In this document: positions 6,650 to 14,524 of the stretch, piece after piece
How the letters are laid out: each line of letters starts with the position of its first letter
Position numbering within the stretch: position 1 is the stretch's first letter
Virus record (IMG/VR): IMGVR_UViG_3300027747_004779
Location: 1 to 64,000 of that record
Strand: one strand, 5' to 3'
Source: a virus
Length of the DNA: 64,000 nt
Notes under the pieces: generated by a model
Database searches by the model: none
What the model was told of the DNA's origin: nothing
What the model saw: only the letters and a program-made list of their open reading frames with translations
Translations under genes and position numbers: made by a program

Positions 6650-6689
6650 GCTTGAACTAATTTGTAATTCCGTTATATTGGTATTATAT

Positions 6690-6761
6690 GCCCCGTTCGT
6701 CTATCGGTCAGGACTCGAGATTTTCACTCTTGCAAGAGCGGTTCGACTCCGCTACGGGGTA
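6690..6761 (+). tRNA. tRNA-Glu(TTC)
   Basis: Acceptor GCCCCGT/ACGGGGT, anticodon TTC at 6723-6725, GGTTCGACTCC T arm; CCA not encoded. Confidence 0.95.
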
Positions 6762-6770
6762 ATTATACAT

Positions 6771-7372: not shown

Positions 7373-7455
7373 GCCTGAGTCGCATAGTGGTCGATTGCGC
7401 AGGTTTTGTAAACCTGACTCGAAAGAGCACGTCAGTTCGAATCTGACCTCAGGCT
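7373..7455 (+). tRNA. tRNA-Thr(TGT) with long variable arm
   Basis: Acceptor GCCTGAG/CTCAGGC; anticodon arm CAGGT-TTTGTAA-ACCTG (TGT at 7407-7409); V arm CTC-GAAA-GAG; T arm GTCAG-TTCGAAT-CTGAC. Confidence 0.85.
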
Positions 7456-7512: not shown

Positions 7513-10500
7513 TTAACCTTGATCTTCAGTCCACGATACACGAGCGCGAGTTAACGCATTATAACCATCAAACGTTTTGGTAGATACAGTTAAAACGTCA
7601 GGGCCATCAGGATACGTAAAATTACCACCTATTATGCTATTACCTAAGTCTCTTACAACTTCGATATCAAAATTTTCACTTATATAAGTTGGATTTTTAT
7701 ATGTAGTTGTTGCAGGCGATGCGGGGGAAACAAAGAATGAAGCTATAAGATCGCCTCCCGAACCATCAACATTAAATGATCCGTTTGCTGTGTGATCCCA
7801 GTATTGTGCAATACTACCGTTTCCACCGGGCTGCCATCCCGATGAGGATCTAAATAGGCTTGAATCACAATTTACTCTTACAAAAACTTGAATAGGGTTA
7901 GTTGTAACAATACCTAAACTTCTTAATTTCATTGATGAGTGATTAATTAAATTTCTTATACCAAATGGTGCAGTAATACCGTAGTCAACGGAAGGTGCTA
8001 GTCTTATACTCAATAATGCTTTTTCGCTACTTTCACTTATCTGATATTCTTTAGTAAATCCCGTAAATAAGTACGACTTATCTTCAGTAAAACCACCGTC
8101 AATTAGTGCTGCAACGCCCCAATGGCTTAGAGCTGGTGAACAATTTTGATTTACTGATAAAAATCCATCACCTGCATTTATAGCAGGAACAGTTATTAGC
8201 CCTCCAGTATTTCTATTCTTTATTACAAGATTGACATTGTTTCCTGATGTACCGGCTTTTTGATACTCTATGTATTCGTTATTAACTAAAATTTTACCCT
8301 TCGAAGGTAGATAGTAAGCATCTTCTTCTGATACTTTTAGTACGTTTTGCGCACCAATATAAACAGTTAAGTTTGTTACAGGAAGCGGTCTATATTTACC
8401 AAAAACAGTTGACATGTTTGCGGTATATTGAACTGTTGTTCTATTAGTACCGCTATTGTAAGTTGAATTGCTACTTAAGTTAAATGTCCCTCTAACGGCT
8501 GATTCGGGGGCTATTCCTATACTATAAGTAACGGTGATTAGAGTACCTGAAATAAGTTGTGAAGAATAATCGCCAGTTAATTGAAACTGTACTGTTTTAG
8601 TGCCTGGTATACCGGTCGGTGTACTAGGAATTACAGGGAGGTAAGAGTCTGCAGCGACTATACTGTTTAAAATTTTGCCTTTTTTGCTACGACTAGTTAT
8701 TTCAAAGCGGCCAGGTAAATTACCTGAACGCATATAGGCTTTATCATTAACGTTGTTATTGTAAAGCTCATGAAAATAAATTATTTTACCTTTATTTGAG
8801 CGAATACCATATCTTACTTTGCCAGCACCGTACCAGGAATAATCAATAAATACCATCTGCATTTTGTTTAAGTCTACTGTATAGCCAGAAGGTCCAGTGC
8901 CATCAATTTTATCTAAATTAAAATTATTTTGACGAGTACGTATTTCTTCTGTTTTATTTACGATAACATTTTCTATAGTTGGCCCTCTATAATAAGGTGC
9001 AATTCTAAGATTATTATCATCAATAATTTTTACAACTAAATAAGATTGACCTCTAATAACAATATAATCACCTTCATTAAGCTGTGATTTAAATTTACAA
9101 TTACTATCATAGCTTGATAAAAGTGGGGTACCTAGAGTAGCAGTACACGTACCGGCTAGAGGCGTAGTACTTTGGCGCTTACAGCAGTATAGATCTTTAC
9201 CATCATATTCAAAAAATAAGCCGTTTTGCTCATCAAACATTCCCGAACGTACTGTTGCATCATTAAAATTCTTTACGCGTACTTTTCCAATACCGCCCGG
9301 GTTAAAGTCAGTTGTAGGGAACGGATTATAATCATCTACTGGCATTCTTACTTTAAACTGCTTGGCATTTACAACCTCGGAAACAGCAAAATATCCGTTA
9401 TATGGATTTCTACTTGCTGTGGCGCTTAATTCAAACCCTGTAGTTTCAATATAGGCAGATTCTCTAAATTCGTACGGTTTAGAAAAGCCATGATATTGAA
9501 CAGTTGTAATAATAAAATCATAAAAATTATAGCCTCTAGAAATTGTGTTTAATGCAGCTATAGAACCGGTGCCGGCCGGTAGTGCAACCCAGCTACCCTC
9601 AGATATGCTGGATATGGATGAAGTGTTTTCAAAAGTACGGGCGCTTAAAGTCCCATCCCATATTGTCCATCTTGAATTTACTTGACTCCAATAAATTTCA
9701 TTCCCACTAGGGCCATAGAATGTAGTAGTGGGATCAAAGGTTTGCTCAATATCGAAAGTCCTAGTATATGTACCGTTTGTGGTGTTATTAGCTCCATCAA
9801 TAACTATTTTTGATACATAAGTGCTATTATCAAACTTTGAAGTATCGACTTCGGTATTATTAATTTCATAAACCGGTAAGAATAATATACCGGTACTAAA
9901 TTGTACTGATTTACCTGATTGATATTTAAAATATTTTCTGGTTTGTCTTATAATTTGTGCATTTGGCGCAGAGGTACCGGGGTTAATTTGTACCCCGCCA
10001 TCATAATATCTATGCACAGCAATACCCTCTGTTCTAGCATATATTAGGCCTGATGCAGGTACTATTGTTGTTGTAGACGGAAAGGGTGAAGTTACATTAG
10101 ATATGTAAGTTGCACTAGTATCAGAAAGAATAGTGTTTATATTAAAAGTACCGCAATAACGTGCTGTAGGTTGGTTACCGTCAACAATAATTATTGGTGA
10201 GTTTATAAATAAACCGTGAGGGTATTTAAAGTCTATAATTGCCGCACTTGTACCTGCAACACTTGTTATTTTATTAATTGGTATATTAACATTTGTATAA
10301 AGACCTCCGGTAAATAAAATAGTATATGGTGTTTTTTGATTGCCTACTAATGCCGAAGGAGATTTAGTTGTAACTACAAAAGAATATTGGTCGGGCACTT
10401 GTGTAATAATATAAGCACCGTCAACATATGTTGTGTTAAGAGAGTCTTTAATTACAATAGAATCTCCTGTTTTAAAAGGGATACGAGGAATTACATTTAC

Positions 10501-10785
10501 AGTGACTAATACGTCTTTGTTACCCGGGCCTGTAGGCAAGATTGAGGTGATTTGCTCGGATGAAAATGCAGGTTCATTAGCCCGGGCATAAACACCGGGG
10601 TAATTATTACTTGTTGTTAAAAATTCCCATTTAGAAGATTGTAGTGAATATTCAAAATCAGTATCAATTAAACTTTGTGGGTTAGATACTCTTAATTTTT
10701 CAACAGCGTCTTTTGCTGAATCCACAGGAGCTACCCCGTCTGTTGCCAGCGTGCGCAAATAATCTAAATCTGTTTCAAAAGCCAT
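7513..10785 (-). CDS. large virion structural protein (tail-fibre/baseplate associated)
   Basis: KLRVSNPQSLIDTDFEY, RQTRKYFKYQSGK, DYSWYGAG and YMRSGNLPGRFE motifs typical of structural proteins of T4-like aquatic phages. Confidence 0.75.
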   Translation of the reverse strand: MAFETDLDYLRTLATDGVAPVDSAKDAVEKLRVSNPQSLIDTDFEYSLQSSKWEFLTTSNNYPGVYARANEPAFSSEQITSILPTGPGNKDVLVTVNVIPRIPFKTGDSIVIKDSLNTTYVDGAYIITQVPDQYSFVVTTKSPSALVGNQKTPYTILFTGGLYTNVNIPINKITSVAGTSAAIIDFKYPHGLFINSPIIIVDGNQPTARYCGTFNINTILSDTSATYISNVTSPFPSTTTIVPASGLIYARTEGIAVHRYYDGGVQINPGTSAPNAQIIRQTRKYFKYQSGKSVQFSTGILFLPVYEINNTEVDTSKFDNSTYVSKIVIDGANNTTNGTYTRTFDIEQTFDPTTTFYGPSGNEIYWSQVNSRWTIWDGTLSARTFENTSSISSISEGSWVALPAGTGSIAALNTISRGYNFYDFIITTVQYHGFSKPYEFRESAYIETTGFELSATASRNPYNGYFAVSEVVNAKQFKVRMPVDDYNPFPTTDFNPGGIGKVRVKNFNDATVRSGMFDEQNGLFFEYDGKDLYCCKRQSTTPLAGTCTATLGTPLLSSYDSNCKFKSQLNEGDYIVIRGQSYLVVKIIDDNNLRIAPYYRGPTIENVIVNKTEEIRTRQNNFNLDKIDGTGPSGYTVDLNKMQMVFIDYSWYGAGKVRYGIRSNKGKIIYFHELYNNNVNDKAYMRSGNLPGRFEITSRSKKGKILNSIVAADSYLPVIPSTPTGIPGTKTVQFQLTGDYSSQLISGTLITVTYSIGIAPESAVRGTFNLSSNSTYNSGTNRTTVQYTANMSTVFGKYRPLPVTNLTVYIGAQNVLKVSEEDAYYLPSKGKILVNNEYIEYQKAGTSGNNVNLVIKNRNTGGLITVPAINAGDGFLSVNQNCSPALSHWGVAALIDGGFTEDKSYLFTGFTKEYQISESSEKALLSIRLAPSVDYGITAPFGIRNLINHSSMKLRSLGIVTTNPIQVFVRVNCDSSLFRSSSGWQPGGNGSIAQYWDHTANGSFNVDGSGGDLIASFFVSPASPATTTYKNPTYISENFDIEVVRDLGNSIIGGNFTYPDGPDVLTVSTKTFDGYNALTRARVSWTEDQG

Positions 10786-11066
10786 TGACCCTTAACCATG
10801 GCGGCAAGCCGCCATGGCGCTCTGCCCCACTGCTGGGGCTTTCAATAAATAATGAGCGCGACTTTGGTTCTATAAATTTCTTTATAGGTCGGACTATATC
10901 TTCATTCTTACGGAATGCTGGACGCTCAAGCTGGTTATTAAGGTAATCCTTTTTACCTCCAGTAGTCTCTACACCTTCAAAGAGATGGCTCTTTGCTTGG
11001 CTCGGTATTCCCTTAGTCTCCCTTAGGGTTCACCGAATTCATCCAGTACGGGCCTGTGTAATTAAT
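10783..11066 (-). ncRNA. group I ribozyme (ORF-less, intergenic, no evident cis 5' exon)
   Basis: Minus-strand P GAAUUCGGUGAA (11040-11029), Q GGGAAUACCGAGCCAAGC (11012-10995), R GGUGUAGAGACUAC (10975-10962), S GAAGAUAUAGUCC (10903-10891). P3 CUGGAUG/CGUCCAG, P4 UUCGGU/ACCGAG, P6a CAAAGAG/CUCUUUG, P7 GACUA/UAGUC, P7.1, P8 and P9 all form. The ends are inferred. Confidence 0.92.
10796..10817 (-). repeat. perfect GC-rich hairpin CCAUGGCGG-CUUG-CCGCCAUGG
   Basis: 9-bp stem with a G(CUUG)C tetraloop on the minus strand; probably a peripheral P9.2-like element. Confidence 0.85.
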
Positions 11067-11074
11067 TATTTATT
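11065..11074 (-). promoter_or_regulatory. late-type promoter AATAAATAAT directly upstream of the ribozyme
   Basis: TAAATA at 11072-11067 overlaps the upstream stop codon and lies 12 nt before the guide sequence. Confidence 0.6.
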
Positions 11075-12236
11075 CTAGCGCTGTGTTACCTCCTCTATAC
11101 CATTTAGTTGTTACTATTCTAGTACGTTGTGCAAATGTAACTATGTCGTATTGACCAACAGAATTACTTTTTGCAAGTTTACCTATCCTATATACTCTAC
11201 CTTTTTGCCGGCGAGTATAAAATGGCTTTGGTGAAAACCATTCAACATCATGTAAATTGTACCCTCTATATGTAGGAGCATCATAATTTTCATAAAACAT
11301 ATTACTACCAGTACCTCTATCGGTATAACACATATTTTGCATATATCTCCAAATAACTTCAACGAAGACTATTTCATATTCTTTTAGCGCTACACCTTTA
11401 AAGCATTTGAATAAAAATTCATCAGATAGACAATCTGGTCTTCCATCTCTTGTTATTTTTGGTATATTGTTGTTCCATTGATGTGTCTGCCATTTATATT
11501 CTTGGCTTGGATTTTTTCCTCGATCGGCATCTTGATTTTGTATTGACCATCGATTTAAATTATCAACAGTATTATTATTAAACCATTGTTTTGCTTTAAT
11601 TTTAACTGTTGTTGGGACTTGTGGTGTTGCTGCATTCCATGGATCACCAATAAGTGTCCAAGCAACACCTTCTGTAGTACTTGCGTTCCTTAGGGCTTTA
11701 ACTGTACTATCAGTAAATGCATTAAGATAGAAAGGTCCGCCTGGAGGTGCAGGGGGTACAGTTGATGGTCTCGTTTTCCACTCCCACCTATTAAGTGTGT
11801 TATTATAATTAACTATTGAGTTAGCAGAACCGCCGGCTGAATACGTTTCTTTATTCCCTGTACCATCCAAATTAGCTACCCCGTTATAAACTAATTCGAA
11901 TGCAACAGGGTAAGCAGAAAGTGTTGCTACAGTTGGGTAAGATGATTCAATTTTAAAGAGCAATCTCGTCTGATTAGGGGTACTGTTGTTACCACCATTT
12001 CTTTGACCAAAGCGAGTAGCTAAGTACTCAAAAGTACCTTTGTTATGTCTAAAAACATATCTTCTTAATCCACTTTTTTGGCCTTTACTGTTATCACGGG
12101 ATTTATTTAATTTAGATTTAATGTTATCGTTTAAATCGCCGGGATAAATCAAAACATGCTTCTTTCCTTTAAAAATAGGAGGTAATGGCTCTTTATTTTC
12201 ACTCCCAACAAATAATCTATAATCTGTATTATTCAT
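11070..12236 (-). CDS. hypothetical protein (388 aa)
   Basis: Long ORF in the minus-strand run; no motif recognised. Confidence 0.75.
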   Translation of the reverse strand: MNNTDYRLFVGSENKEPLPPIFKGKKHVLIYPGDLNDNIKSKLNKSRDNSKGQKSGLRRYVFRHNKGTFEYLATRFGQRNGGNNSTPNQTRLLFKIESSYPTVATLSAYPVAFELVYNGVANLDGTGNKETYSAGGSANSIVNYNNTLNRWEWKTRPSTVPPAPPGGPFYLNAFTDSTVKALRNASTTEGVAWTLIGDPWNAATPQVPTTVKIKAKQWFNNNTVDNLNRWSIQNQDADRGKNPSQEYKWQTHQWNNNIPKITRDGRPDCLSDEFLFKCFKGVALKEYEIVFVEVIWRYMQNMCYTDRGTGSNMFYENYDAPTYRGYNLHDVEWFSPKPFYTRRQKGRVYRIGKLAKSNSVGQYDIVTFAQRTRIVTTKWYRGGNTALE

Positions 12237-14018: not shown

Positions 14019-14093
14019 TGCGGGGTAGAGAAACCTGGTTAACTCGTGACGCTCATAACGTCAAGATTGTTGGTTCAAATCCAACCCCCGCTA
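14019..14093 (+). tRNA. initiator-type tRNA-Met(CAT) with non-canonical anticodon stem
   Basis: U1xU72 mismatch, G2-C71, C3-G70, A11-U24, TTCAAAT T loop, A73, CAT at 14054-14056; anticodon stem TGACG/CGTCA. Confidence 0.9.
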
Positions 14094-14108
14094 AGTTCAT
14101 TAATAACT

Positions 14109-14519
14109 GGGGGCGTAATGGTATCGATTGAACAGTGGAGTTCATGAGAGCAAGTACCGGGGCATGCCGGTCTACCAATAGCAAAACAACATTAAATGCC
14201 GAAGACAACTTCGACATGGCCATGAGTCTAGAAGAAGCTGATGCAATCCTTGCAACAGCAGGCTTTGTTGATTCAGAAGCCACACTCGAGCTAGTTTAAC
14301 TACTCGATCGTTCTACTGTAGATTGAAGCTTGTAAGGTAGAGCGTGTTACTGGCTTTCGTATAGTCTGGGTTATAACAATTAATAGATTATACGTATAAA
14401 ATTGTTATCAGTAAGGGCTTTTTGTTTAGTTTAATCCTTATGAAAATTCAACTAAAATAAACTTGTAGTGCTTGTGAGTTAAATTATTCAAGACGAGAGT
14501 TCAATTCTCTCCGCCTCCA
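14109..14519 (+). ncRNA. ssrA: tmRNA
   Basis: GGGGGCG/CGCCTCC-A acceptor with G3.U70, GAGAG-TTCAATT-CTCTC T arm, resume context TTAAAT-GCC, tag ORF 14198-14299. Confidence 0.93.
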
Positions 14520-14524
14520 GGTTT

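What the first reader, a model, noticed from the sequence alone, without database searches (positions are those of the whole stretch)
10783..10890. Ribozyme 3' domain has two candidate 3' splice sites (one is the G of the downstream AUG) and an internal tRNA-fMet mimic
Seen: after P7 the RNA reads CGACC, P9, AACCAAA-GUCGCGCUCAUUA, then a GCGCUC/GAGCGC stem, a CUUG hairpin and UUAAGGGUCAAUG-GCU. Model A: GACC pairs with GGUC (P9.0) and the terminal G is that of AAUG, the annotated start codon of the 1090-aa gene, resembling the T4 td intron end; the structural ORF would then be the 3' exon. Model B: CGAC pairs with GUCG and the ribozyme ends near 10859-10857. Separately, GUCGCGCUCAUUA (10862-10850) matches the tRNA-fMet segment GUCGGGCUCAUAA at 11 of 13 positions and pairs with the guide with one mismatch. 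Inference: a self-processing or autoinhibitory decoy site, or a vestige of tRNA exons. Self-cleavage could also set the 5' end and translation of the structural mRNA, or produce tRNA-mRNA chimeras or small circles.
Basis: partly seen in the sequence, partly recalled or inferred. Interest (0 to 1): 0.7.

Follow-up and report, generated by a model that had tools for sequence, protein, structure and literature searches.

The report
Guide-first group I ribozyme before virion gene
A self-splicing-type (group I) RNA enzyme sits between two phage structural genes with its cutting site behind its catalytic core, so it probably cuts the message two bases before the next gene's start codon and may close its own 71-base tail into a ring, rather than joining two gene halves.

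Summary
Comparison with 15 related phage contigs separates the real features from the chance ones.

Real features:
- The guide GCCC (11053-11050) pairs with GGGU (10791-10788) in the ribozyme's own 3' tail, and both are invariant in 16 of 16 sequences. The base after the U pairs with the base 5' of the guide in 15 of 16, using C-G, G-C and A-U.
It ends in the invariant G10859, which matches the terminal G of two canonical relatives whose exon junctions I could verify.

Not supported:
- Model A, in which the G of the AUG is the terminal G. Its informative pair holds in 5 of 16, and the GGGU-to-AUG spacing varies from 2 to 12 nt.
- The tRNA-fMet mimic. It scores 11/13 only in this window and 3-8/13 in relatives.

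There is no 5' exon strand, no P2 and no interrupted gene. The 3' splice site (10859|10858) therefore lies upstream of the 5' splice-type site (10788|10787). Engineers use this same order to make circular RNA.

Best reading: GTP attack frees the 1090-aa gene's mRNA with a 3-nt leader, and the 71-nt tail is probably circularised. No RNA data could be obtained. This scan reached the same reading before on related DNA.

The parts
11070..12236 (-). Upstream gene P0001 (388 aa, no known family). It is complete, and its stop codon TAA is at 11072-11070.
   Evidence: ORF list and translation. No Pfam or PHROG match. The C-terminus ...RGGxTALE is conserved with third-codon variation in relatives, so it is protein-coding and not a P1 strand.
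11055..11072 (-). A/U-rich, unconserved linker between the stop codon and the guide. It contains TAAATA (11072-11067), a possible T4-type late promoter.
   Evidence: The alignment shows no conserved hairpin, so there is no P1 5' strand and no P2. TAAATA is strongly enriched 5-7 nt before ATGs in this window. Its promoter role is an inference.
11049..11054 (-). Internal guide sequence GGCCCG. The core GCCC is 11053-11050, and G11053 makes the U-G wobble.
   Evidence: GCCC is invariant in 16/16. The base 5' of it (11054) covaries with the base after the cleavage site and with the base after G10859.
10870..11048 (-). Catalytic core P3-P9, with a P7.1-type insert. P7 is GACUA/UAGUC, and P9 has a GAAA loop.
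   Evidence: Rfam RF00028 at 70.9 bits. RNAalifold on 8 sequences gives 46 pairs, 20 of them with compensatory changes, in P3, P4, P6, P7.1, P8 and P9.
10888..10891 (-). J7/9 segment CGAC, the 5' strand of P9.0.
   Evidence: It covaries with 10862-10859.
10859..10862 (-). GUCG, the 3' strand of P9.0. It ends in the invariant G10859, which corresponds to the terminal (omega) G. The 3' splice-type site is 10859|10858.
   Evidence: 16/16 paired at three positions, with exchanges. Canonical relatives L082 and L153, whose exon junctions were verified, have the same layout with the splice site right after this G.
10793..10858 (-). Structured tail. A closing stem starts at 10858, followed by an internal hairpin (GCAG loop) and a second hairpin (CUUG loop). 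It is the main part of the 71-nt segment (10858-10788) that would be circularised.
   Evidence: RNAfold of the tails. WIN and L003 share the fold through many compensatory changes, and relatives carry GNRA loops. Tail length is 20-95 nt across 16 sequences.
10787..10792 (-). Substrate strand of P1, AGGGU|C. The predicted cleavage (5' splice-type) site lies between U10788 and C10787.
   Evidence: See the guide entry. Unconstrained folding gives the guide-tail helix a probability of 0.9 or more in 6 of 8 sequences. It is the only guide-complementary site at a conserved position within -400 to +700 nt.
7513..10785 (-). Downstream gene P0002 (1090 aa), a virion structural protein. Its start codon is at 10785-10783, 2 nt after the predicted cut.
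   Evidence: phrog_5838, E = 3e-166. Homologs in T4-like cyanophages. An in-frame TAA lies two codons upstream of the ATG.

Best explanation
This is a naturally permuted, 'guide-first' group I ribozyme, not an intron in a gene.

Order of parts on the RNA: guide (GGCCCG), catalytic core P3-P9, P9.0 with the terminal G10859, a structured 71-nt tail, the substrate strand AGGGU|C, two bases, and then the AUG of the virion gene.

Proposed mechanism:
1. The tail folds back so that GGGU pairs with the guide to form P1, with the usual U-G wobble.
2. Free GTP or guanosine bound in the core attacks between U10788 and C10787. This releases the mRNA of the 1090-aa protein with an added G and a 3-nt leader (G-CA-AUG).
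3. The new 3'-OH of U10788 then attacks after G10859. This closes the 71-nt tail into a small circle and leaves the upstream gene's mRNA ending in the ribozyme core.

What is shown here: the core fold, the guide-tail helix, P9.0, the position of the terminal G, and the absence of a 5' exon strand.
What is inferred: that the reactions happen, the order of the steps, the GTP-derived 5' end, and any benefit to translation. I put the chance of cleavage at about 0.7, and of the circle at about 0.5 overall.
For: (1) The core is real and under selection. Rfam gives 70.9 bits, and 20 of 46 pairs show compensatory changes. All 15 other homologs that lack the N-terminal domain carry it at the same place; the four examined closely for protein identity are 48-87% identical.

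(2) The guide pairs with its own tail. GCCC/GGGU holds in 16/16 with an invariant U-G. The adjacent pair holds in 15/16 as C-G (10), G-C (1) and A-U (4); 0.0001 of shuffles reach this. Eight of these sequences were fetched after the model was made and fitted it.

(3) Thermodynamic folding alone finds this helix at p of 0.9 or more in 6 of 8 sequences.

(4) No guide-complementary site lies at a conserved position upstream, and WIN has none within 400 nt. The linker is unconserved. Both flanking ORFs are complete.

(5) P9.0 covaries and ends in an invariant G. Canonical relatives with verified junctions splice right after the homologous G: L082, whose joined exons read ...HSDFSLLDGFAKV, and L153, whose joined exons are called tRNA-Met.

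(6) The base after G10859 pairs with the same guide base in 15/16, a one-pair P10 (shuffles 0.0004).

(7) Engineered Tetrahymena constructs with this same order (guide, core, 3' site, insert ending in U, discarded 3' part) circularise the insert at about 80% (PMC10415121; see also PMC11417360).

(8) Context. In this window 12 ORFs have TAAATA ending 5-7 nt before the ATG, and few genes have a Shine-Dalgarno sequence. Very short leaders therefore seem to be the phage's normal mode.
Against: - No RNA-level data.
- P10 is only 1-3 bp, and its first base also belongs to the tail's closing stem, so its covariation is weaker evidence than the count suggests.
- G10859 can pair with C10817 in the tail stem.
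- One relative (L306) has an A-C mismatch at the pair next to the cleavage site, and one (L311) has A-G at the P10 pair.
- In three relatives the tail is only 20 nt, so a circle would be very small.
- The sequences share ancestry, so shuffle counts overstate independence. I count two or three independent changes of the guide-flanking base.
- The promoter reading of TAAATA is inferred, and the motif is absent or degenerate before the ribozyme in several relatives.
Confidence: 0.5

Rival explanations
1. One-step cis-cleaving ribozyme. The guide-tail P1 directs GTP-dependent (or hydrolytic) cleavage at 10788|10787 to separate the two messages. P9.0 and G10859 are kept only for folding, and no circle is made.
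For: All the evidence for P1 applies. P10 is minimal at 1-3 bp. G10859 can be sequestered in the tail stem. 20-nt tails in L307, L310 and L311 would give very small circles.
Against: The G after P9.0 is invariant. It is homologous to the splice-site G of canonical relatives. The following base tracks the guide in 15/16. Engineered constructs of the same order proceed to circles.
Confidence: 0.2
2. Structural or regulatory RNA without catalysis. The guide-tail helix simply hides the region before the AUG (a translational brake), or the folded core protects the upstream mRNA's 3' end.
For: The helix ends 2 nt before the AUG in this window. No cleavage has been observed.
Against: A mere helix would tolerate G-C in place of the U-G wobble, yet U-G is invariant in 16/16. 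The whole catalytic core, including J8/7 and P7, is kept nearly unchanged, while the flanking proteins examined fall to about 50% identity.
Confidence: 0.1
3. One reading: a trans-acting ribozyme whose guide GGCCCG targets host initiator tRNA (CGGGCU). The internal GUCGCGCUCAUUA serves as a decoy or autoinhibitory mimic, or the G of the AUG is the 3' splice site.
For: In this window the 13-mer matches at 11/13 and pairs 5/6 with the guide. GACC/GGUC can pair.
Against: The mimic is 3-8/13 in relatives and pairs 1-4/6. The outer guide bases needed for CGGGCU vary: 5' G/C/U and 3' G/U/A. The 5' one covaries with the cis site instead. Model A's informative pair holds in 5/16, and the AUG lies 2-12 nt from GGGU.
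Confidence: 0.04
4. Canonical intron that splices the 388-aa ORF to the 1090-aa ORF, or a decaying intron relic with no activity.
For: Rfam aligns a 'P1' over the end of the upstream ORF. Ribozyme-less homologs carry about 75 extra N-terminal residues.
Against: Rfam's P1 has many non-pairs, and its letters vary at third-codon positions. No U-G site complementary to the guide exists there. P0001 has its own conserved stop and P0002 its own conserved start. P0001 is not homologous to the missing N-terminal domain (hhalign probability 0.09%). A relic would not keep 20 compensated pairs across 8 lineages.
Confidence: 0.05

Closest known systems
Canonical group I introns of the same sequence subgroup in phages, e.g. 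the intron in a dnaE-like gene (L082) and in a tRNA-Met gene (L153), both found here
   Same: Near-identical core (GGAUGAAUUCGG, GUAGAGACUAC, GAUAUAGUCC). A P7.1-type insert. P9 with a GAAA loop. P9.0 made of the 4 nt after UAGUC, with the terminal G as its last base.
   Different: The canonical ones have the 5' exon strand and L1 before the guide, plus a P2 hairpin, and they restore a gene or tRNA. Here P1's substrate strand lies after the 3' site, P2 is absent and nothing is restored.
Engineered self-circularising group I constructs: Tetrahymena ribozyme system (Cui et al. 2023, PMC10415121), cis-splicing system (Qi et al. 2024, PMC11417360), and permuted intron-exon designs (Puttaraju and Been 1992, from my own knowledge)
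   Same: The same order: guide at the 5' end, core, 3' splice site, RNA ending in U that pairs with the guide, and a 3' part that is cut off. P9.0 and a short P10 matter in both.
   Different: Those are man-made, and the discarded 3' part is vector sequence. Here the 'discarded' part is a virion protein mRNA, and the circularised part is a short structured tail.
Back-spliced giant group I intron (ND5-717) of mushroom-coral mitochondria (Chi et al. 2019, as cited in PMC8637638)
   Same: A natural group I precursor in permuted order.
   Different: There the permutation comes from a circular mitochondrial genome, and back-splicing restores a coding sequence. That is a different host, scale and purpose.
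[quoted passage not shown] 2021, PMC8637638)
   Same: A bacterial, stand-alone, permuted self-splicing ribozyme predicted or shown to give circles.
   Different: A different ribozyme class and chemistry. Those never abut an ORF, whereas this one sits 2-12 nt before a start codon.
Lariat-capping (GIR1) ribozyme
   Same: A group I-derived ribozyme placed before an ORF that cuts near its own 3' end and so forms the mRNA's 5' end (text; the rest from my own knowledge).
   Different: GIR1 has no P1 or U-G site and works by 2',5' branching. Here a standard P1 with U-G and a standard core are kept. Only RF00028 matched among 4227 Rfam families.
c-di-GMP-controlled allosteric group I ribozyme in a Clostridioides difficile 5' UTR (PMC3984707)
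   Same: A domesticated group I ribozyme in a leader, whose processing decides what lies before the start codon.
   Different: That one is a canonical-order intron with an upstream aptamer and alternative 5' sites. No aptamer or 5' exon is present here.

Membership tests
Group I intron (Rfam RF00028) | Conserved catalytic core P3-P9 with the P7 guanosine site | tested here: met
   70.9 bits against a gathering score of 50. 46 consensus pairs, 20 with compensatory changes.
Group I intron (Rfam RF00028) | P1 helix: the guide pairs with a substrate strand ending in U opposite G | tested here: met
   GGGU/GCCC in 16/16, with the flanking pair covarying. However, the substrate strand lies 3' of the core, not 5'.
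Group I intron (Rfam RF00028) | Terminal G preceded by P9.0 | tested here: met
   CGAC/GUCG covaries. G10859 is invariant and homologous to the splice-site G of L082 and L153.
Group I intron (Rfam RF00028) | Interrupts a gene; exon ligation restores it (5' site upstream of 3' site) | tested here: not met
   Both neighbours are complete ORFs. No upstream guide-complementary site exists. The site order is reversed.
Group I intron (Rfam RF00028) | Guanosine-dependent self-processing | not testable with these tools
   Needs in vitro transcription with GTP. Public RNA runs could not be reached.
Permuted / self-targeting circularising group I layout (so far engineered) | Order guide - core - 3' site - insert - 5' site - leaving 3' part | tested here: met
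   Coordinates 11054-11049, 11048-10870, 10859|10858, 10858-10788, 10788|10787, then 10787 onward. The same order is described in PMC10415121.
Permuted / self-targeting circularising group I layout (so far engineered) | Circular product with the junction U(-1) joined to the base after the terminal G | not testable with these tools
   No reads available.
Lariat-capping ribozyme (GIR1) | No P1 or U-G site; rearranged core; branching reaction | tested here: not met
   A standard P1 with U-G and a standard core are present. cmscan of all Rfam families lists only Intron_gpI at this place.
Riboswitch-coupled allosteric group I ribozyme | Ligand aptamer directly upstream of the ribozyme | tested here: not met
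   No riboswitch family matched in the window. The upstream linker is 18 nt, A/U-rich and unconserved.

The most novel reading that the evidence does not exclude
A clade of aquatic T4-like phages has domesticated a permuted group I ribozyme as an mRNA-maturation device. GTP attack creates the translatable, nearly leaderless 5' end of a major virion-protein mRNA, carrying a GTP-derived triphosphate. This would couple late protein synthesis to the GTP supply. The same reaction releases a 20-95-nt RNA circle descended from the anticodon stem-loop of an ancestral intron-bearing tRNA.
Probability: 0.25. Interest if true: 0.85.

Novelty: new variant of a known kind. Interest (0 to 1): 0.72.

Why it matters
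Group I ribozymes are textbook introns: they sit inside a gene and restore it. Here, the same enzyme is conserved across at least 16 phage lineages while standing alone, with its splice sites in reverse order, and aimed at the bond just before a start codon.

If it works as predicted, it would be the following:
- A natural counterpart of the constructs now engineered to make circular RNA.
- A ribozyme-based way of forming an mRNA 5' end in bacteria or phages. Unlike cuts made by small self-cleaving ribozymes or RNases, the new end would carry the attacking GTP.
- An example of how an intron can be rewired into a processing element.

A 2023 survey of natural RNA permutations lists none for group I (PMC10085705). 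The only natural permuted case I found cited is a coral mitochondrial intron.

The claim can be tested in a few days with one in vitro transcript.

It also has a practical side for annotation. Gene callers place spurious ORFs, or false upstream starts, over these elements (immuto26A_226 and the L305 gene start).

Tried and rejected
- **Canonical splicing of the two ORFs.** I looked for in-frame junctions and a 5' site at the end of P0001. No guide-complementary U exists there, and the letters vary like codons. Rejected.
- **Missing N-terminal domain as a 5' exon.** tblastn of the S-PM2 N-terminus against 4 kb upstream found nothing. hhalign of the domain profile against the P0001 family gave probability 0.09%. 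A search of the phage's own record found nothing (the record is only about 74% complete).
- **Shine-Dalgarno reading of AAGGGU.** Rejected because the spacing to the AUG is 2-3 nt in most members, most genes here lack an SD, and an SD would not covary with the guide.
- **Rfam at a permissive threshold on the tail.** It gave only a chance miRNA hit with E = 3.1, so the tail is not a known RNA family or tRNA-like element.
- **Metagenome pattern scan.** It was mostly chance matches (17 specified bases) and added one family member plus several canonical tRNA introns. One viral hit (L048) was a chance match.
- **Automatic classifier of 5'-located versus tail-located P1 across all fetched ribozymes.** My pattern missed most of them, and I did not use the result.
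- **Distant P0002 relatives (40% identity or less, 80 loci).** Apart from a re-fetch of L006's contig (L170), none has the ribozyme.
Full report
**What is there.**
On the minus strand the window reads as follows:
- a complete 388-aa ORF (P0001, 12236-11070);
- an 18-nt A/U-rich linker;
- the hexamer GGCCCG (11054-11049);
- a group I catalytic core;
- about 85 nt of tail;
- the ATG (10785) of a 1090-aa ORF (P0002).

Rfam's group I model matches 11106-10870 at 70.9 bits, against a gathering score of 50. No other family matches at this place. P0002 belongs to phrog_5838, 'virion structural protein', and has homologs in T4-like cyanophages such as S-PM2. P0001 has no family.

**The observation.**
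- CGAC, P9 (GAAA loop), and AACCAAA-GUCG-CGCUCAUUA;
- the CGCUC/GAGCG stem around a GCCCCA/UGGGGC hairpin;
- a 9-bp hairpin with a CUUG loop;
- UUAAGGGUCA-AUG.

**Relatives.**
- Seven IMG/VR contigs encode a P0002 homolog of 49-87% identity.
- Eight further contigs were fetched from a protein search.
- All of these carry the same ribozyme in the same place. Rfam confirmed this for seven, and the rest by sequence.
- This gives 16 distinct sequences. The last eight were fetched after the model below had been formulated, so they served as an out-of-sample test.
- Eighty more distant homologs were also fetched (40% identity or less, apart from one re-fetch of L006's contig). None of the distant ones has the ribozyme.
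- One 1300-aa homolog (L312) has no ribozyme either.

**The core is a working-type ribozyme.**
RNAalifold on eight sequences gives 46 pairs. Twenty of them are kept through changes on both sides, in P3, P4, P6, the P7.1-type insert, P8 and P9. The single-stranded catalytic joints are invariant. Proteins flanking the element fall to about 50% identity, so the RNA is under strong purifying selection.

**There is no 5' exon strand.**
- Rfam forces a 'P1' onto the last codons of P0001, but that alignment has many non-pairs.
- In relatives those letters vary at third-codon positions, as expected for the conserved peptide ...RGGxTALE-stop.
- The linker between the stop codon and the guide is unconserved and has no hairpin, so P1's 5' strand and P2 are both missing.
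- I scanned 400 nt upstream and 700 nt downstream for sites complementary to the guide with a U opposite its G. Only one site has a conserved position, and it lies downstream. WIN has no such site upstream at all.

**The guide pairs with the ribozyme's own tail.**
- GCCC (11053-11050) pairs with GGGU (10791-10788) in 16 of 16 sequences, and the U-G wobble is invariant.
- The base after the U (C10787) pairs with the base 5' of the guide (G11054) in 15 of 16: C-G ten times, G-C once, A-U four times and one A-C. Only 0.0001 of label shuffles reach this.
- The sequences are related, so I count two or three independent coordinated changes rather than 16 observations.
- Independently, plain thermodynamic folding of guide-to-AUG transcripts forms this helix with probability 0.9 or more in 6 of 8 sequences.
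- This is a textbook P1, except that the substrate strand arrives from the 3' side.

**Model B is right about P9.0; model A is not.**
- CGAC (10891-10888) and GUCG (10862-10859) pair in all 16 sequences at three positions, with G-C/A-U/G-U and A-U/C-G exchanges (shuffles 0.008 and 0.0003).
- Two canonical relatives of the same sequence subgroup fix what the last G is.
  - In L082 the joined exons read ...HLHRHSDFSLLDGFAKV.
  - In L153 the joined exons are called tRNA-Met by ARAGORN.
  - In both, the 3' splice site lies immediately after the last G of the 4-mer complementary to the four bases following UAGUC.
  - G10859 is that G.
- Model A (GACC with GGUC, terminal G being the G of the AUG) fails. 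Its one variable pair holds in 5 of 16 with no compensation, and GGGU lies 2 to 12 nt from the AUG.

**The tRNA-fMet 'mimic' is a chance resemblance.**
- The 11/13 match and the 5/6 pairing with GGCCCG are true for this window.
- The homologous 13-mers of relatives score 3-8/13 and pair 1-4/6.
- Matches of 11/13 or better to the same 13-mer occur three times in this 64-kb window.
These vary, and the 5' one tracks the cis site.

**Consequence: reversed splice-site order.**
The 3' splice-type site (10859|10858) lies upstream of the 5' splice-type site (10788|10787), and 71 nt lie between them. This is the order used in engineered self-circularising group I constructs:
- guide at the 5' end, then core, then 3' site;
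- RNA to be circularised, ending in a U that pairs with the guide;
- a 3' part that guanosine attack removes.

About 80% circularisation was reported for a Tetrahymena version (PMC10415121). P9.0 and a short P10 were found important in another such system (PMC11417360).

Here the base after G10859 pairs with the same guide base in 15 of 16 sequences, a one-pair P10 (shuffles 0.0004). The second P10 position pairs in 10 of 16. That first base also opens the tail's closing stem, so I treat this as moderate support only.

**The tail.**
- Its length is 20-95 nt.
- WIN and L003 share one fold (closing stem, internal hairpin, second hairpin) through many compensatory changes.
- Most relatives carry GNRA loops: GCAA, GCGA, GAGA and GAAA. 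I infer that these replace the tertiary contact of the missing P2.
- In L307, L310 and L311 the tail is a single GUUA-capped hairpin followed by AGGGGU. After ligation it would resemble a closed anticodon stem-loop.
- Related canonical introns sit in tRNA and tmRNA genes. Descent from a tRNA intron is therefore plausible but untested.

**Likely function.**
- Most genes in the window lack a Shine-Dalgarno sequence (7 of 42).
- Sixteen of 50 ORFs have TAAATA within 30 nt upstream, against about one expected. In 12 of them the motif ends 5-7 nt before the ATG.
- If TAAATA is a T4-type late promoter (my knowledge of T4; an inference here), many late mRNAs are leaderless or nearly so.
- Cleavage at 10788|10787 would give P0002 the same kind of 5' end (G-CA-AUG). 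By established group I chemistry, that end would carry whatever guanosine cofactor attacked, most likely GTP.
- A TAAATA also ends 13 nt before the guide in WIN, and 11-12 nt before it in L003 and L049. In several relatives it is degenerate, so whether the ribozyme heads its own transcript is open.

**An unexplained correlation.**
- Every ribozyme-less homolog examined begins with a domain of about 75 residues (MAKKLxYNYTFDAS...LITNVTDN). These are S-PM2 d173 and eleven IMG/VR loci. L312 also begins MAKRQ.
- The ribozyme-bearing homologs whose starts I read all start just after where this domain ends.
- The domain is not found in the phage's record (the record is about 74% complete).
- P0001 is not homologous to it.

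**Known or new.**
- A 2023 list of natural RNA circular permutations has no group I entry (PMC10085705).
- The only natural permuted group I precursor I found cited is the coral mitochondrial ND5-717 intron.
- Permuted group II introns that make circles are known (PMC8637638).
- My literature searches found no phage or bacterial example.
- This scan, however, has already reported the same layout on related and other phage DNA: e1-5318501, e1-5318461, e1-5327094, e1-5348311 and e1-5661718. Those are unchecked AI notes and not independent evidence.

**Limits.**
Nothing here shows a reaction.

My odds:
- Guide-tail helix real and selected: about 0.9.
- Cleavage at 10788|10787 in vivo: about 0.7.
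- Circle formation: about 0.5.

Noticed in passing
whole window, both strands: TAAATA lies within 30 nt upstream of 16 of 50 ORFs of 100 aa or more (about one expected). In 12 of them it ends exactly 5-7 nt before the ATG. Only 7 of 42 large ORFs have an SD-like motif. This suggests T4-type late promoters that give leaderless or near-leaderless mRNAs.
   Followed up: partly
window 7513-10785 (-); L002 2288-2560; L175-L245; L312: All ribozyme-less homologs of the 1090-aa protein start with a domain of about 75 aa (MAKKLxYNYTFDAS...LITNVTDN). The ribozyme-bearing clade lacks it. The domain was not found elsewhere in this phage record, and the upstream 388-aa protein is not homologous to it.
   Followed up: partly
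L018 (minus strand) and L021, around the core match: A second free-standing ribozyme subfamily sits after a different structural gene. Its guide is UUGCCUG, its tail is a 20-nt hairpin followed by UAGGU|AACAAC (up to 10 pairs with the guide in L018), and it has the same CAAC...GUUG P9.0. No start codon follows directly.
   Followed up: partly
L303 2476-2760 (Flavobacterium phage vB_FspM_immuto_2-6A, MW353175.1 about 145.03-145.31 kb): A related ribozyme core lies between two same-strand genes in a cultured Flavobacterium phage. The annotated 45-aa 'hypothetical protein' immuto26A_226 lies over it and is probably spurious. GGAUC in its tail can pair either with the candidate guide GGUCC or with J7/9. 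A terminator-like hairpin follows.
   Followed up: partly
L020, L042, L030 (output): Other stand-alone ribozymes are flanked by a long-range helix of about 15 bp (AAUAAUUACAGUUCU with AGAACUGUAAUUAUU), reminiscent of the 'homology arms' of engineered circularisation constructs. L030 also has the guide GGCCC and UGGGU|CAAC in its tail.
   Followed up: no
L305 715-903; window 10713-10946 (+): Gene-calling artefacts over the element. In L305 the homolog's called start is a GTG inside the ribozyme tail (the real AUG is about 45 nt downstream), and a 46-aa ORF is called over the core. In the window a 77-aa plus-strand ORF overlaps the ribozyme.
   Followed up: yes
L014, L017, L032, L044 (output): Phage tRNA-Leu(UAA) genes are split by a related intron. 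With the usual U-G rule, the joined anticodon loop would have 8 nt. The same paradox was reported earlier in this scan.
   Followed up: no
L255, L257, L259, L274 and others (output): Related group I introns appear to sit in the T-loop of tRNA-like 3' domains ending ...CCUCCACC, which look like phage tmRNA genes.
   Followed up: no
window 14019-14520 (+), 6689-6762 (+), 7373-7455 (+): A phage tmRNA (86.9 bits) directly follows a tRNA-Met(CAU). tRNA-Glu and an 83-nt tRNA-Thr lie nearby.
   Followed up: no
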